From Pseudogymnoascus verrucosus (taxonomy: Eukaryota): a stretch of 60,494 bases of DNA. Both the position numbers and the translations under genes were made by a program. Below the pieces are notes generated by a model. The model was not told the DNA's origin. It ran no database searches and saw only the letters and a list, made by a program, of their open reading frames with translations. Below, in pieces: positions 1-6,631 of this stretch (positions are counted from its first letter, which is position 1; the number at the start of each line of letters is the position of its first letter). The stretch lies in assembly GCA_001662655.1 (NCBI GenBank), contig KV460263.1. One strand, written 5' to 3'.

Positions 1-872
1 AAGGCGACGGGATTCCGTGGGTGCCAACAGTATATCCGGAATCGTCAGAAGTATAATCACGGCCATAAATAGGGTCATGTATTTCTTTTCTAAGTTGGAT
101 TCGATTATGCAAAGCTTCGTGAAAGAGGAACTGACCTGAATATTACGCATCTAGTGTTACTTAATGCCCACTTGTTAAAGGGAAACTGTTTTCACGCACC
201 AGGATACCATGTAACCATATATCGTGGTGCCGTCTCGCACATTTCGTTATTTCCTGGTACGTCCGGTAGTGACCTGTATTGGTTTTTGAGTTGGAAGAAA
301 CGGGGGCAAATCGAAAGATTTGGAATCGAGTTGCTGCTATCGGTGGATAGTGTAGGGTCACCATCGCAAGTGCTGGGGCAGGTGACATAAATATAGAAAC
401 GCGTGCTGTCAAGAGTAGCCATCGTTTCCACCGCTCGTATAACGTTTCCAGCAAGTTGATATTGCAACGTGGAAAGTGAACCGAAGAGCATTTTAGTTCT
501 GTGAAATTTAGCATATTAACTAATTTAGGTAGGGCATTGATTGAATAAATAACTTGCGAAATTGTTAAAGGAGACAATAAAATAGGCTTTCTTAACAACA
601 GCAACCTTCGAATTCTGTAACATTGCAAGGAATCTTAATGGATAGACTTACAATGGATCCGCTAACGCAGGATTACCGCCGGTTTGCCATGCTGTATAAA
701 CCCGATTTGAAAGGATCGAAGCATCGGCGTACCATCCATCCAACTCCTCTTGAGTGATTTGCCCTGTACATGTTCCGTCCATCATACTTATAAATGCAGC
801 GGACATAGATAGTTGAAACGATGTAAGTAGAAGCCATGTTCGTGGGGAGCGTAATGTACGAAAAAGCAACAT
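1..872 (-). CDS. Secreted HEXXH zinc metalloprotease, aspzincin/M35 (deuterolysin)-like; 3' end runs off the window
   Basis: Exons 872-652, 498-200 and 135-<1 join in frame through GT-AG introns (651-499, 199-136). The product has a hydrophobic N-terminus (MLLFRTLRSPRTWLLLTSFQLSMSAA), ICPRFF, and YPGQFLFHEALHNRIQLRKEIHDPIYG (HEALH at 121-107, followed by DxxYG). Confidence 0.8.
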
Positions 873-2477
873 GCTGATCAACTAAGGAGATTTGTATGAG
901 TACTCTTATTCTAGATGGAAAAGCGCAAAGTCTGGATAGAAGATAGCGCAACTTCCAAGAGACCAGTAGGTATTACAATACAAATAGGAGGAAGGGGAGG
1001 AAAATGTGTTTAATTTATTATTGTCGCTAAAACTGGCATGTTACTGAGGTAAGTAGTGAGATAGCTTCCAATCGGCATTAGTGACGTACAAATGTCAAGG
1101 TGACAACGTAACTATGCCGTAATTAAAAAAGGGTCGATCACTGATCTCTTGATCTTTCGATCTGTTATTAAGTTTGATCGCCTTGCAAAAATCTCAATCT
1201 TGCAAGTGGCTCATCACATAGCATTAGACCGCTTCTGTTAGACTAAATCGCGACGGTACCTATCATCTAGAAAAGTCTCTTGATGAGTGGAATTTTATTT
1301 TGGAACGAGTGGTTTTAATGTATAAGTTACAAATAAACATATCGAGTTTTTAGCTTGCTTAATTAACAGTAATTATAGACTATAATATAACGTAGCTATA
1401 GCTGTGCAATGCTGCTATAATCGTTCCGTTGTGCCTAAAGGTATGGAACTAGTTGGGGTTAAGGGGTACTCTCCTAAGCCGAAAGAATTAATACTAGAAT
1501 TCAGGTAGACGATGAGCTGTCATAGAAACTCTACAGGTGGAATTGACAGTTACCCTACCCTATGGACATTGCATCTCCTACATCTTCATAGATTATAACG
1601 GACCCCAATTTCAAATCTGTCTGTCCAATAGAAGGGAAGGTTTTGTAAAGTTACCCTAGAGCTCTATTGCAATGTATGTTTGCTGCAATTTAGGGGCACC
1701 TAGTGTTGCATGTAATAAACATAGCCCAATAGTGCCCATTGCAAGCAGAGTAGGGTGTGCTAGGTAAAGTTTTCACAGGAAAACGGGTTGTCGAAAGCGT
1801 CCTCTCTCGCAACTTGTTTTTGTCACAGGTTGAACCAGAAATTGCAAATTGGATTAATCGGTCCGAATGTGCTGCTAACAGCTAAATCCATGATGTAGAT
1901 TTCTTTTGTATTGTATAAACCAAATTGTATAAACCAAGGTTATCTTAGCGCAAATATGGGCGAGTCGTTCGGTCTTTCCAGTTTAAGACTAAAATAAAAA
2001 TCTAGAACTCGTTGATACCGGAAATTCTTTTAATGGGTTTCTAGTCAAAGATATGTATTTGTTCATCAATAGCTAATGTTGGAAGGTAGATTATCCCAAC
2101 ACTGCCGTTTGCAGTGTTAGCGTTATGGTGAACATGGCTAGAGGGCGGAGCAATCCGTGGTATGTACTGTACATCTTGTCCTAGGAAAGAATGGCTCGTT
2201 CAATAAATCTTCCTGTTGAGCAAACAGAGTAGGTTGCAATTCAGTAGAGTCTATACTGAAGACAGTTAAGCTGCATGATGGATCGATACAAAACGTCACA
2301 TGTCACATCAATTGTCACCTAGGAAAACTATAAAATCCATCCTTAGAGCTTGGATTCCCATTTACAATCACATACTTTAACCAGCAGTATTTACAGTCAA
2401 TCGAGTCGTTATTTGTTTATCCTCTAATTTGTACAATCTTGGTTAACCCCACTGATACTACTACAAAAAAGCCCACA

Positions 2478-3767
2478 ATGGGTTCTCGCCCCGTTACAGA
2501 TGCTGAATGGGATTCTCTATCGCCAGATTTTCCAAACTTGGACAGAAGTTACACCTTCTGGCAAGCTCCTGAAACACTGTCGTATAACTGTATTGCATGG
2601 TCTATGGGTATCACTTGGACTTGGATCGACCCACCGTCTGACCAGAATAGTTTCACATTGCTATGTGAGCAAACTTTTAAGTATTCCTAATTACTACCTC
2701 ATTTGCTAATACCTTGAAGACAAGTGTCTTGGCTTTAAACCTTGCGCAGAAAATTTGGGTACAGTCGATGGATATGCTCTGAATGGAGAAATGACTCACG
2801 CTTCATGTTTACTTGGAACCACATGGTCCAGCAAGCTTGGAGAGGATTTTAGGATCTCCCATCCACGCGTCGGATTAGTTGGCGGCATACTGTACGGAGA
2901 TATTGTTAGTCATTATTGTCCAGCAACAACTTCGTGGAGCCTTCCTCAGGATCTCGAGCTAGAACCTGCAAGCCAGGAAGTTGTGCAACAAATCGCTACC
3001 CTGGCAGACTCCATCAAAACCTCATATCCAGAGCTTACTAATAATTTCGACACCCTGTACGCTGCTTGGAAGGGGACATGGTTTTCGACTTTTAACATGG
3101 CTCTGCAACAAAGGTATTCACTACTATGCTCTCCTTTTAGCATTTTCTTACCAACACAATTATTTTCACAGCTCTGCTGCCCGGGCAACTGGACCACAGT
3201 GGGAGGCTGTAGTCGCTTTAGGACCGACTGTTCTACCTCTAGTCGTTGCAAAGCTGACAACTGGAGATGATGCATTTGCTGTGCAGCTATGTAAGTCAGC
3301 TTCTATATATAATGTATAGAATGAAGTTTTAACATCAATATTTTTTTCTAGACAACATGCTCGAAACAGATGCGACCAAAAGAGTTGACCCAGATGAACT
3401 GACAACCTACTATTTTCTCAACAATCAGGCTCAGGCAGATGTCACCCTATTCTCTAGTGATGTCAGTGCCTTTAATGCCCTCGCAGATCTTTGGATTCAG
3501 GATCAGAGCCACATTTTACGCTCAAGTCGTTCTACTGATTATCTAAATCATGATTCTTACAATCGCCTCGTCCGGATGGGGAAGTCGGCCATACCACTCA
3601 TCATGGAGCGTTACGCAAGGGACCAGGAAGGGTGGTGGCATGAATTGATGTACGAGATTGTCCACCAACGGAGATCTGGCTCTATGACGTTTCATAAAGT
3701 TGACTTGTTTGCATATTGGAAGGACTGGTTTCAGAATCCTTCTGTTTCTCAAGCTAGTAGTTCTTAG
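2478..3767 (+). CDS. Uncharacterised protein: N-terminal Cys/His domain (DUF7689-like) fused to two tandem helical domains
   Basis: Exons 2478-2664, 2720-3113, 3172-3290 and 3352-3767 splice in frame with canonical GT-AG sites. Motifs are YNCIAWS (Cys codon 2589), THAS (His codon 2797) and WSSKLG, plus two copies of FxxLxxxW...SS...(W/Y)xx(V/L)VxLG/MGxxxxPL. TATAAAA lies at ~2329. Confidence 0.75.
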
Positions 3768-3998
3768 TTTTAAGGCTAGCTTTCTATAGTGAGTTTATTT
3801 GATAAAATCGAATTGGACAATAAAGCACAGTGAAATAGATTCATCTACATAAATTATAATTTCAACATGCGTCTAGCTAGCCAACGTTTTATAAGTCGAT
3901 ATGACTAAAGATCAGTCCCTGAATTAAAATAGTTGTAGACATTGACTGTGCAAGAGGACTCCAGAGAGAATGAGTATGCTTACAGTACACTACGCTCT

Positions 3999-5094: not shown

Positions 5095-5725
5095 AAATAG
5101 CTTTCTAAATTCTGCAAACAGCGTTCTCAGTCTTGTCGGACGTATTACGATCTACCTAAATAGCTTCGTAGATGCTGCAAGCAACGTTCTTTATGCCATC
5201 TAACGTATTTCATGCAACCGGAATAGCATTCTAGATGCTGTGAGCAGCGCTCTTAGTTTTATCTGACGTATTTCACAATATCAAAGTAGCTTTCTAGATG
5301 ATGCACGCAGCACTCTTAGTGCCATCTAACGTATTTCATGCAACCATAATAGCGTTCTAGATGCTGTGAGCAGCGCTCTTAGTTTTATCTGACGTATTTC
5401 GCAATATCAAAGTAGCTTTCTAGATGATGCACGCAGCACTCTCAGTGCCATCTAACGTATTTCATGCAACCGGAATAGCGTTCTAGATGCTGCAAGCAGC
5501 ACTCTCAGTGCCATCTGACGTATTTTATCCAGTCTAAATAACTTTCTAGATGCTGCAAGCAGAATTCTTAGTTTTATCTGACGTATTTCACAATATCCAA
5601 GTAGCTCTCTACACGCTATGAGCAGCATTATTAGTGCCATCTAACGTATTTCACTCTACGTAAGAAGCTTTCCAGATTCTTTAAGCAGCGGTTCTTGATG
5701 CCATCTGACGTATTTCACTCCAGAT
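5095..5725. repeat. Tandem array of ~10 copies of a 63-bp unit, with a partial 126-bp higher-order repeat
   Basis: The core ACGTATT recurs at 5140, 5203, 5266, 5329, 5392, 5455, 5518, 5581, 5644 and 5708 (63-bp spacing, last interval 64). Units 2/4 and 3/5 are nearly identical to each other. Confidence 0.95.
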
Positions 5726-5890
5726 AAATTCTTAGCCTAGTGACTGGTACGATAAACCAACAGCTCGGAGGTGCAATTGTTCTAGATATATAACATGCGT
5801 CTGCCTTGGCCATATTCCACAAAAACTCATCATACTCAAAATCATATTATCAAAATCATATTATCAGGTCTCGTTCAACTACTACCAATC

Positions 5891-6631
5891 ATGTCTATTT
5901 CAACGTACTCCATTCAAGTTTACAATGATAGTGGAATTCCTCAGAACTACCTTCTTTTCCAGTCTGCTCCTCAGCTTTCTGGCGATGGAACGGTTTTTAC
6001 AAACGTATTTCAACAGTCCCAACAAATTCCGTCTGGCGATAATTCAAATGTCATCTTCAATATGACCAACCAATACTATGCCGTCATTGGTACTGCTCCA
6101 ACACCAATTGACGATGGAGTCAAGGTCAACACCAGTTCATATATCCCAGTACAGCTCTCTAGTTCCTCTCAAGGTGGGACTAAAGCTATTATGACAACCT
6201 CCGGGGGAGGCACCGGCTGCTCATTCGACGATGCGAGTCAAACGCTCGAGTCGGATATCGAAAACACTTTTGAAATCGAGACAAACGATTCATTTAGTTA
6301 TCCCTCGCCCGGTACGTATTGATTTGTTCTGAGGCAGAAGGCAGCTAACTTATCCGCGCCTTTAAAAGGTAATATTTTCCTCGGCATGGGAGCAGATTCT
6401 CCTTCTGGCGTTGTGCCTGTGGCAACCGTGACTGCGGCACCAAACCAGAAGTACTACTTTAACCCTGTTGCGAGATGGTACATCGGTACTGGCACCTACA
6501 CACCTGGTACAGTCGTCAACATCACGGACATTGGTAATATCCAGGAATGCGACTTCACTCAAAACCAACTCCCGCAAACTTATTATCAAGGCCCAGACCA
6601 GCTATACCACCCGGGCACGCCCCCCTCCTAG
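5891..6631 (+). CDS. RhiA-like beta-rich protein (paralogue B), no signal peptide
   Basis: Exons 5891-6311 and 6369-6631 (phase-1 intron, GTACGT...AAG). Motifs YSIQVYNDSGIPQNYLLFQSAP...IFLGMG...VATVTAAPNQKYYFNPVARWYIGTGTYTPGTVVN...CDF fit the RhiA-like pattern. Confidence 0.75.

What the first reader, a model, noticed from the sequence alone, without database searches (positions are those of the whole stretch)
1..6631. Candidate undescribed cargo module: secreted metalloprotease, Cys/His enzyme fusion and two RhiA-like proteins
Seen: four intact, spliceable genes (the first incomplete at the window edge) in two divergent pairs within 6.6 kb. None is a housekeeping gene, all are fragmented in the ORF track, and they sit beside RIP-destroyed DNA while themselves escaping damage. 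Three resemble families I know mainly from bacteria (DUF7689-like, RhiA-like). Inference: a mobile, possibly bacterially derived interaction module (antagonism, defence or host contact) with a toxin-like enzyme, beta-rich partner proteins and a protease. I know of no description of this combination in fungi.
Basis: partly seen in the sequence, partly recalled or inferred. Interest (0 to 1): 0.8.

Follow-up and report, generated by a model that had tools for sequence, protein, structure and literature searches.

The report
Fungal accessory genes, not a proven module
Four real, non-housekeeping fungal genes sit together here (a likely zinc protease, a Cys/His protein of unknown function and two RhiA-type beta-sandwich proteins), but nothing I could test shows that they work or move as one unit.

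Summary
The window comes from a Pseudogymnoascus fungus. G2 (2478-3767, +) translates to an annotated 371-aa DUF7689 protein, 371 of 371 residues identical. G4 (5891-6631, +) matches a 227-aa RhiA_N protein, 227 of 227. G3 (3999-4740, -) is an anciently diverged paralogue of G4. Spliced contigs of a related fungus confirm one intron in each of G2, G3 and G4. G1 (1-872, -, cut by the window edge) carries an HEALH...DPIYG motif of the aspzincin kind, but has no profile hit and no annotated orthologue.

The "bacterially derived mobile module" reading is not borne out:
- RhiA-like proteins are widespread in filamentous ascomycetes. All 17 hit clusters that carry an organism name are Pezizomycotina.
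- None of 72 bacterial DUF7689 loci holds a RhiA-like gene, and two RhiA-bearing plasmids hold no DUF7689.
- The clear RIP-like DNA lies 48 kb away.

The unit that does recur is a pair of divergent RhiA-like paralogues, also seen on Phaeobacter and Rhizobium plasmids. A 2026 paper shows that a bacterial RhiA homologue binds plant metabolites. Cytosolic ligand binding is therefore my best guess for G3 and G4. The closest relatives of G2 that I found are Bacteroidales mobile-element lipoproteins (32% identity), so its origin stays open.

The parts
1..872 (-). G1: putative secreted aspzincin-like zinc metalloprotease, 3' end cut by the window edge. Exons are 872-652, 498-200 and 135-1; introns are 651-499 and 199-136.
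   Evidence: Reading frames and GT..AG introns come. HEALH followed 10 residues later by DPIYG lies in exon 3. The N-terminus MLLFRTLRSPRTWLLLTSFQLSMSA looks like a signal peptide (by eye). The Atlas gives leads to Aspzincin_M35 at 0.76-0.80. No Pfam or NCBIfam hit on exon pieces and no annotated orthologue found.
2478..3767 (+). G2: 371-aa DUF7689 protein, made of an N-terminal Cys/His domain and two copies of a helical module, with no signal peptide. Exons are 2478-2664, 2720-3113, 3172-3290 and 3352-3767.
   Evidence: The spliced translation is identical to P0162 (371 of 371). Pfam DUF7689 scores 85.3 bits on the 91% orthologue P0160, and 7.4e-08 and 1.7e-10 on the window exons. The third intron is confirmed by the X20 joint 3290>3352. 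Identity to a Bacteroides plasmid lipoprotein is 32% over residues 4-266, and residues 272-351 match the same bacterial stretch a second time. C38 and H110 are invariant in 8 sequences.
3999..4740 (-). G3: 224-aa divergent RhiA-like beta-sandwich protein. Exons are 4740-4359 and 4291-3999; the intron is 4358-4292.
   Evidence: Both exons hit my RhiA-family HMM (3e-15 and 1e-12). The N-terminal half is 29% identical to G4 (E 1e-06). G3 keeps the six near-invariant family residues. An X20 contig joins 4292>4362. It is a long unplaced branch in the tree.
5140..5717 (.). 63-bp tandem repeat array, about 9 copies, in the shared upstream region of G3 and G4.
   Evidence: Tandem Repeats Finder gives period 63, 9.2 copies and 72% matches. 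Length varies among relatives: X4 skips 316 bases, and X3 and X6 carry 11 extra.
5891..6631 (+). G4: 227-aa RhiA_N (PF27136) family protein. Exons are 5891-6311 and 6369-6631.
   Evidence: The spliced translation is identical to P0170 (227 of 227). The 92% orthologue P0002 carries PF27136. The Atlas scores 0.98 to RhiA N-terminal domain clusters. My HMM gives 1e-44 and 4e-27. The intron is confirmed by X20. The model of P0002 has pLDDT 95.8 and is all-beta.

Best explanation
This is a lineage-restricted, AT-richer patch of accessory genes in a Pseudogymnoascus chromosome. It holds four independent transcription units and is not a demonstrated module.

G3 and G4 are an old, divergently transcribed pair of RhiA/PSMB-family beta-sandwich proteins without signal peptides. 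I infer that they act in the cytosol as binders of small hydrophobic or aromatic metabolites, for sequestration or tolerance, as shown for the bacterial homologue PSMB1a. They may act as a pair, because two divergent paralogues side by side also occur in bacteria.

G2 is a cytosolic DUF7689 protein. Its invariant Cys38 and His110 suggest a thiol-dependent hydrolase or transferase (inferred). It is fused to a helical module that is duplicated in the fungus. G1 is probably a secreted aspzincin-type zinc protease.

Shown: the gene models, splicing and transcription of G2-G4, family membership, and the recurrence of the RhiA-like pair.
Inferred: ligand binding, catalysis by Cys/His, and secretion and activity of G1.
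For: - Gene models are identical to annotated proteins, and spliced contigs exist for G2, G3 and G4 in one run.
- Pfam finds DUF7689. RhiA_N is supported.
- The family is broad in fungi: 347 representatives, and all 17 named clusters of 29 looked up are Pezizomycotina.
- Adjacent RhiA-like paralogue pairs lie on a Phaeobacter plasmid and on Rhizobium pRL10. The a-copies cluster together (99) and the b-copies cluster together (96), so the pair is older than those two plasmid lineages.
- PMC13490719 (abstract, section 2.5 and passages read) reports RhiA homologues as a beta-sandwich with a binding groove. PSMB1a binds solanidine (Kd 0.10 uM) and salicylic acid (9 uM), and '1+2' subfamily pairs are found in several genera.
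- PMC2275737 (passages read) uses RhiA as an abundant cytoplasmic marker.
- The G4 orthologue model is all-beta with pLDDT 95.8.
- C38 and H110 are invariant across 8 fungal and bacterial DUF7689 proteins.
- There is no co-occurrence of the two families in bacteria.
- The right flank holds housekeeping genes.
Against: - No ligand, no activity and no structure of G2 were obtained. The single-sequence fold of P0160 failed (pLDDT 36).
- The fungal proteins are only about 28% identical to the bacterial ones, so function may differ.
- The PSMB binding data come from one paper and one protein.
- G2-G4 share a compositional island and appear together in one RNA-like run. That is what a co-regulated cluster would also show.
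- In Bacteroidales, DUF7689 genes sit beside secreted proteases or MACPF toxins. This loosely echoes the G1-G2 pair.
- Co-occurrence in other fungi was not testable here.
- G1 has no profile support.
Confidence: 0.55

Rival explanations
1. A functional interaction module. In this reading the DUF7689 enzyme, the two RhiA-like proteins and the protease act together in antagonism, defence or host contact, and travel together.
For: - The genes form two divergent pairs in one AT-richer 6.6-kb patch.
- G2, G3 and G4 all give spliced contigs in the same run, X20.
- The arrangement is kept in at least three related genomes and in the locus-tag order of VKM F-4520 and F-4519.
- Bacterial DUF7689 genes are cargo of conjugative plasmids and elements. 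They sit next to a MACPF protein, an astacin protease or two C10 proteases.
Against: - None of 72 bacterial DUF7689 loci, nor the plasmid loci, holds a RhiA-like gene.
- Neither of 2 RhiA-bearing plasmid records holds DUF7689.
- Synteny was seen only among near-identical relatives (about 99% DNA identity), which says little.
- G2-G4 have no secretion signal.
- No mobile-element genes or ends lie in 1-7 kb.
- G1 is unverified as an expressed gene.
Confidence: 0.15
2. A bacterial import. G2 alone, or the whole patch, entered a Pseudogymnoascus ancestor by horizontal transfer from bacteria and then gained introns.
For: - The only relatives of G2 found outside the genus are Bacteroidales, Segatella and endosymbiont proteins. 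Identity is 23-32% over up to 265 residues, with the same domain order.
- The bacterial forms ride on plasmids and conjugative elements.
- GC3 of the patch is below that of 28 of the 29 other long ORFs for G1-G3, and near the lowest for G4.
Against: - The one protein search made for G2 used only exon 2 and a word filter that also missed the bacterial relatives. Absence of other fungal homologues is therefore not shown.
- 32% identity is not a recent transfer.
- G2 has three introns.
- RhiA-like proteins are clearly long-established in Pezizomycotina.
Confidence: 0.15
3. G3 and G4 are a two-component beta-rich toxin or lectin, for example pore-forming or carbohydrate-binding, and not metabolite binders.
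For: - The fold is all-beta.
- The genes come as a paired, divergently transcribed couple.
- There are weak structural echoes of beta-sandwich membrane-binding or sugar-binding domains, such as pneumolysin domain 4 at Z 4.1 and CBM41 at Z 4.0.
Against: - The best structural Z is 4.7, below the tool's stated chance level of about 7-8. Foldseek found nothing at E<=0.001.
- Neither protein has a signal peptide.
- RhiA is cytoplasmic in Rhizobium (PMC2275737, passages read).
- A homologue binds small molecules (PMC13490719).
Confidence: 0.05

Closest known systems
RhiA of Rhizobium leguminosarum and the PSMB family of Pectobacterium (Pfam PF27136 RhiA_N)
   Same: Both are all-beta proteins of about 210-240 aa with no signal peptide. 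G3 and G4 match a family profile that also matches the Rhizobium and Phaeobacter plasmid proteins. Both occur as neighbouring divergent paralogues (PMC13490719 section 2.5).
   Different: - The hosts here are fungi, the genes carry an intron, and they are transcribed divergently and not in tandem.
- Identity to the bacterial proteins is about 28%.
- G3 is a very long branch.
- I never compared them with the RhiA sequence itself, which was not on hand.
- Ligand binding is untested.
- None of the 7 titles and abstract starts listed (of 8 papers holding both 'RhiA' and 'fungi') concerns a fungal homologue of this family (listing only).
DUF7689 (PF24738) lipoproteins on Bacteroidales conjugative plasmids and elements
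   Same: The domain order is the same: a DUF7689 domain and then a helical module. The YNCIA(W/Y)SMG, W.SK and H110 positions are invariant. Identity is 32% over 265 residues.
   Different: - The bacterial forms have an N-terminal lipoprotein-type leader and the fungal one starts at the mature domain (read by eye).
- The fungal protein has a second copy of the helical module and three introns.
- The neighbours differ: MACPF, astacin or C10 proteases in bacteria, RhiA-like genes in the fungus.
- The function is unknown in both. No paper holds the terms DUF7689, PF24738 or PF27136.
Aspzincin / M35 zinc metalloproteases (deuterolysin, peptidyl-Lys metalloendopeptidase; PF14521)
   Same: G1 has HExxH followed closely by D..YG, with upstream Cys-containing stretches like those of the family (the family motif is recalled, not from a call). 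The Atlas lists Aspzincin_M35 clusters among the nearest named neighbours of exon 2. A signal-peptide-like N-terminus is present.
   Different: No Pfam hit on any exon piece. The gene is cut by the window edge. No annotated orthologue was found.

Membership tests
RhiA / PSMB family (PF27136 RhiA_N) | Significant match to the family profile | tested here: met
   The local Pfam copy lacks PF27136 (one search gave 0 families). The 92% orthologue of G4 carries the precomputed PF27136 label. The Atlas scores 0.98 to RhiA_N clusters. My HMM, built from 93 family hits, scores G4 exons at 1e-44 and 4e-27 and G3 exons at 3e-15 and 1e-12. It also scores the Rhizobium and Phaeobacter plasmid proteins.
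RhiA / PSMB family (PF27136 RhiA_N) | All-beta 'butterfly' sandwich of about 210-230 aa | tested here: inconclusive
   The model of P0002 with 92 aligned relatives has pLDDT 95.8 and 18 strands, with no helices of 4 or more residues. It was not superposed on a RhiA or PSMB model, as none was on hand. There is no solved relative: best Z is 4.7, and Foldseek found none at E<=0.001.
RhiA / PSMB family (PF27136 RhiA_N) | Binds small plant or defensive metabolites | not testable with these tools
   Shown only for PSMB1a in PMC13490719 (abstract and section 2.5 read).
DUF7689 (PF24738) | Pfam profile match above the gathering score | tested here: met
   Window exons score 33.6 and 42.1 bits against a cut-off of 22.6. 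The full-length orthologue P0160 scores 85.3 bits.
DUF7689 (PF24738) | Conserved Cys and His, the putative catalytic pair | tested here: met
   C38 and H110 are invariant in 8 sequences from fungi, Bacteroidales, a soil contig and a mussel endosymbiont. H89 is not invariant. Catalysis itself is untested.
Aspzincin / M35 metalloprotease (PF14521) | HExxH plus the downstream Asp in a GTxDxxYG-like motif | tested here: met
   HEALH and DPIYG, with Asp 11 residues after the second His, were read in the exon 3 frame. The family motif itself is recalled.
Aspzincin / M35 metalloprotease (PF14521) | Profile match to the domain | tested here: inconclusive
   No hit on the exon pieces at E<=10. The domain is split over three exons and cut by the window edge, so a miss is expected. 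The Atlas gives leads of 0.76-0.80 only.
Conserved gene cluster / mobile module | The same family combination recurs in unrelated genomes | tested here: not met
   None of 72 bacterial DUF7689 loci holds a RhiA-like gene. Neither of 2 RhiA-bearing plasmid records holds DUF7689. Fungi outside the genus could not be searched for gene order.
Conserved gene cluster / mobile module | Mobility marks: transposase, element ends, presence/absence among relatives | tested here: not met
   Positions 1-7 kb hold no such genes. Three related genomes hold the whole stretch in one piece, apart from the variable tandem repeat.
RIP-affected DNA next to the genes | TpA/ApT above 0.89 together with (CpA+TpG)/(ApC+GpT) below 1.03 | tested here: not met
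   Within 1-7 kb the composite index is -0.51 to +0.05. It is weakly positive at 7-8.5 kb (0.05-0.24) and strongly positive only at 54.5-56 kb and 59-60.5 kb (1.4-2.0).

The most novel reading that the evidence does not exclude
G2 descends from a Bacteroidales-type mobile-element DUF7689 lipoprotein that crossed into a Leotiomycete. There it lost its leader, duplicated its helical module and gained introns. It now works with the neighbouring RhiA-like heteropair as a cytosolic 'bind-and-modify' system for a foreign or self-made small molecule. G1 would be a separately secreted partner, echoing the protease-DUF7689 neighbourhoods of gut bacteria.
Probability: 0.1. Interest if true: 0.6.

Novelty: new member of a known kind. 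Interest (0 to 1): 0.33.

Why it matters
RhiA has been a protein of unknown function since the 1980s. A first biochemical role, metabolite binding, was reported for bacterial homologues only in 2026. A large, undescribed branch of the family in filamentous ascomycetes, again arranged as pairs of divergent paralogues, gives a second kingdom in which to test that role, and to test whether the pair is the working unit. G2 is one of the few eukaryotic DUF7689 proteins with clear, full-length bacterial relatives on mobile elements, so it is a candidate for working out what this Cys/His domain does. Taken as a four-gene "module", the finding is ordinary: a patch of accessory genes.

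Tried and rejected
- **Whole genome:** none is held for this window.
- **Fold of the G2 orthologue P0160 without an alignment:** pLDDT 36, unusable.
- **Structure searches with the G4-orthologue model:** Foldseek against the PDB gave nothing at E<=0.001. VIA-align wide gave a best Z of 4.7, with generic beta-sandwiches only.
- **PDB sequence searches:**
  - G1 exon 2: 0 hits.
  - P0002: only antibody light chains at E>=0.07.
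  - DUF7689 profile A3: only chance-level rows at E>=0.33.
- **PHROGs scan** of DUF7689 and RhiA-like proteins: nothing relevant.
- **NCBIfam:** nothing.
- **The search for related loci with the 92-sequence RhiA alignment:** I used tblastn on plasmids in its place.
- **The genome search centred on a plasmid locus:** Only the plasmid records themselves could be searched.
- **G1 exon 2 against longer proteins:** 50 candidates, none at E<=0.001.
- **Translating G1 exons 1-2 through the in-frame intron for Pfam:** rejected because of 3 stops. I did not pursue it.
- **Sequencing runs:** no RNA holder is listed. X20 is only guessed to be RNA. No X20 contig lies on 1-3000, which holds G1 and the start of G2.
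- **Complex prediction, with G3 given as its two exon products plus G4:** no answer, score 0.00.
- **BcpT plasmid toxin paper (PMC9308784; abstract and sections 7-8 read):** BcpT is a 499-aa lipoprotein on a different plasmid and is not the DUF7689 protein.
- **Earlier-findings look-ups:** by place and by sequence gave nothing.
- **Paper searches:**
  - One search was swamped by the term 'rhian'.
  - One search was not discriminating.

Full report
**What is there**

The first 6.6 kb of the window is AT-richer than the rest: GC is 0.38-0.43 per kb, against mostly 0.49-0.60 further on. It holds four intron-bearing genes in two divergent pairs.

- **Organism.** Protein searches place the window in the fungal genus Pseudogymnoascus. 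The G4 exon finds V502_06413 of Pseudogymnoascus sp. VKM F-4520 at 91%. The G2 exon finds V502_06411 on the same 28.7-kb contig at 93%.
- **G2 and G4.** Spliced at GT..AG introns, G2 (2478-2664, 2720-3113, 3172-3290, 3352-3767) equals P0162, 371 of 371 residues. P0162 is listed for P. verrucosus and VKM F-103. G4 (5891-6311, 6369-6631) equals P0170, 227 of 227.
- **G3** is 4740-4359 plus 4291-3999, giving 224 aa.
- **G1** runs 872-652, 498-200 and 135-1, and leaves the window.

**Transcription and conservation**

I laid contigs of four public runs on 1-9000.

- Run X20 comes from a related organism and is only guessed to be RNA. Its contigs skip 3291-3351 (GT..AG), 6311-6367 (GT..AG, cut +1) and about 4293-4361. 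These are exactly, or within two bases of, my introns in G2, G4 and G3.
- The three DNA runs show none of these joints. Spliced copies of three of the genes therefore exist in that sample.
- The DNA runs X3, X4 and X6 come from three differently coded organisms. Each holds 1 to about 5200 and about 5540 to at least 7000 (to 7915 in X3 and X6) in long contigs, with about 1% differences.
- The gap between those stretches is a 63-bp tandem repeat array (5140-5717, 9.2 copies). Its length differs among the runs.

**Families**

*G2: DUF7689*
- Pfam scores 33.6 and 42.1 bits on the window exons and 85.3 bits on P0160.
- tblastn of P0160 on plasmids found 12 records, 10 Bacteroides and 2 Phocaeicola.
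- The pairwise alignment is 32% identical over residues 4-266 (E 5e-36). Residues 272-351 match the same bacterial helical stretch a second time, so that module is duplicated in the fungus.
- The bacterial proteins start with a hydrophobic leader ending in Cys. The fungal protein starts at the mature domain.
- Across 8 proteins, C38, H110 and the YNCIA.SMG block are invariant. H89 is not.

*G4 and G3: RhiA family*
- G4's orthologue carries PF27136, which the Atlas names RhiA_N (score 0.98). The local Pfam copy lacks this model.
- An exhaustive HMMER search with P0002 found 347 representatives at E<=0.001.
- I built an HMM from 93 hits of 190-260 aa. It scores G4's exons at 1e-44 and 4e-27 and G3's at 3e-15 and 1e-12. 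No other ORF of the window scores.
- G3 and G4 are 29% identical in the N-terminal half.
- G3 keeps the six near-invariant positions of the family.

*G1: aspzincin-like*
- Exon 3 reads ...FLFHEALHNRIQLRKEIHDPIYG.... This is the HExxH plus D..YG pattern that I recall for aspzincins.
- Atlas neighbours of exon 2 that bear a family are all Aspzincin_M35, but at 0.76-0.80 they are leads only.
- Pfam and NCBIfam find nothing on the pieces.
- No annotated protein of 175 aa or more holds exon 2.

**Is it bacterial, mobile, or a module?**

*RhiA-like proteins are an old fungal family.*
- I looked up 29 RhiA-like hit clusters. Of these, 17 carry an organism name, and all 17 are Pezizomycotina: Aspergillus (2), Xylographa (2), Exophiala, Cudoniella, Glonium, Podospora, Pseudogymnoascus, Aureobasidium, Naviculisporaceae (2), Lophiotrema, Tolypocladium, Fusarium, Dactylellina and Pyrenochaeta. 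The other 12 have no organism on record.
- I made a FastTree of 98 rows. Hits outside 195-260 aa were left out, 60 of the 152 held.
- G4 joins Aspergillus viridinutans and Cudoniella proteins (support 99).
- G3 is a long unplaced branch (1.37). The pair is therefore old and not a recent duplication.

*The RhiA-like pair recurs in bacteria.*
- tblastn of P0002 finds 21 Phaeobacter plasmids.
- The Phaeobacter protein in turn finds 101 plasmid records: Rhizobium 45, Serratia 29, Phaeobacter 21, Agrobacterium 3 and 3 others. Most of the listed Phaeobacter, Rhizobium and Agrobacterium rows have two or more places each, while the Serratia rows have one.
- On the Phaeobacter plasmid and on Rhizobium pRL10, two adjacent genes both hit my HMM.
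- In the tree the a-copies pair and the b-copies pair.

*The two families do not co-occur in bacteria.*
- None of the 72 bacterial DUF7689 loci (11 genome loci, 61 metagenome loci), nor the Bacteroides plasmid loci, holds a RhiA-like ORF.
- The whole pRL10 and Phaeobacter plasmid records hold no DUF7689.

*What bacterial DUF7689 genes sit next to.* They are cargo of mobile DNA.

| Context | Neighbours |
|---|---|
| 44-kb conjugative Bacteroides plasmid | a hypothetical gene and a MACPF gene |
| 6.3-kb mobilizable plasmid | DUF7689 is the only cargo apart from replication, mobilization and toxin-antitoxin genes |
| Segatella conjugative element | astacin and DUF4377 |
| Bacteroides MAG | two C10 peptidases |
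| Soil contig | an 8xMP membrane protein |

*Mobility and flanks.* The fungal patch has no mobility genes. To its right lie an F-box-like ORF and then a high-copy repeat fragment at 7.8-8.4 kb. That fragment has depth about 100-fold and an 86% copy at 59.5 kb. Beyond it come housekeeping genes: a Far11-like protein, Sec16 and a P4-ATPase.

*RIP.* RIP indices are clearly positive only at 54.5-56 kb and 59-60.5 kb.

**How it probably works**

- The model of the G4 orthologue is confident (pLDDT 95.8) and all-beta. It has no solved relative.
- PMC13490719 (abstract, section 2.5 and passages read) describes RhiA homologues as a butterfly-shaped beta-sandwich with a groove.
- It shows that PSMB1a binds solanidine and salicylic acid and raises tolerance to plant metabolites.
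- It also notes recurrent '1+2' paralogue pairs.
- PMC2275737 (passages read) treats RhiA as an abundant cytoplasmic protein.
- G3 and G4 lack signal peptides.
- I therefore take cytosolic small-molecule binding, possibly as a pair, as the most likely role. This is inference from distant homology.
- For G2, the invariant Cys and His suggest a thiol enzyme. No fold could be obtained.
- G1 is most likely a secreted zinc protease.

**Comparison with the literature, and verdict**

- No paper in the library holds DUF7689, PF24738 or PF27136.
- Eight papers hold both 'RhiA' and 'fungi'. None of the 7 titles and abstract starts listed concerns a fungal homologue of this family; two are about Rhizopus and its rhizoxin-producing endosymbiont (listing only).
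- Two earlier notes of this scan touch the families. One calls DUF7689 a mobile secreted thiol-hydrolase with a helical partner (e1-1231947). This agrees with the invariant Cys/His pair. It also suggests that the helical module fused here is that partner, which I did not test.
- The other note reports an 82-residue partner of bacterial RhiA-like proteins (e1-720625). I did not look for it here.

My verdict: these are real genes with correct family labels. There is an interesting fungal branch of the RhiA family and a possibly transferred DUF7689 gene, but no evidence for a four-gene module.

Noticed in passing
window 5140-5717: A 63-bp minisatellite of about 9 copies fills the shared upstream region of G3 and G4. 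Its length differs among related genomes: X4 skips 316 bases, and X3 and X6 carry an 11-base insertion.
   Followed up: partly
window 7800-8400 and 59524-59720: A high-copy repeat fragment lies 1.3 kb beyond G4. Its contig depth is about 100 times the single-copy level in three genomes, with many loose ends. One 86%-identical copy sits inside the RIP-like block at 59.5 kb. In X4 the locus is replaced by 771 other letters.
   Followed up: partly
window 54500-56000 and 59000-60494: Two AT-rich blocks (GC 0.33-0.38) show strong RIP-type dinucleotide bias, with composite index 1.4-2.0.
   Followed up: no
window 6899-7459 (-): An intact 186-aa ORF with an F-box-like N-terminus (by eye) and no Pfam hit at E<=1e-5. 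It sits between the AT-rich patch and the repeat.
   Followed up: no
L001 9986-12158; L002 8001-9981: On the Phaeobacter and Rhizobium plasmids, the two tandem RhiA-like genes are followed by one or two small hypothetical genes of 48-131 aa. An S8 peptidase and a PAP2 phosphatase lie next to the Phaeobacter set.
   Followed up: no
L005 (pBACSA03, 6277 bp): A DUF7689 lipoprotein gene is the only cargo of a small mobilizable Phocaeicola plasmid, apart from replication, mobilization and toxin-antitoxin genes.
   Followed up: no
L016 7229-10843; L014 9815-13870: In a Segatella conjugative element, DUF7689 follows an astacin protease, a DUF4377 protein and a 173-aa ORF on one strand. In a Bacteroides MAG it is followed by two C10 cysteine peptidases. 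This is a possible protease link for the family.
   Followed up: partly
P0006 (Aspergillus clavatus ACLA_060030, 488 aa): This RhiA-like protein is double length, with three matched stretches. It may be a fused tandem pair.
   Followed up: no
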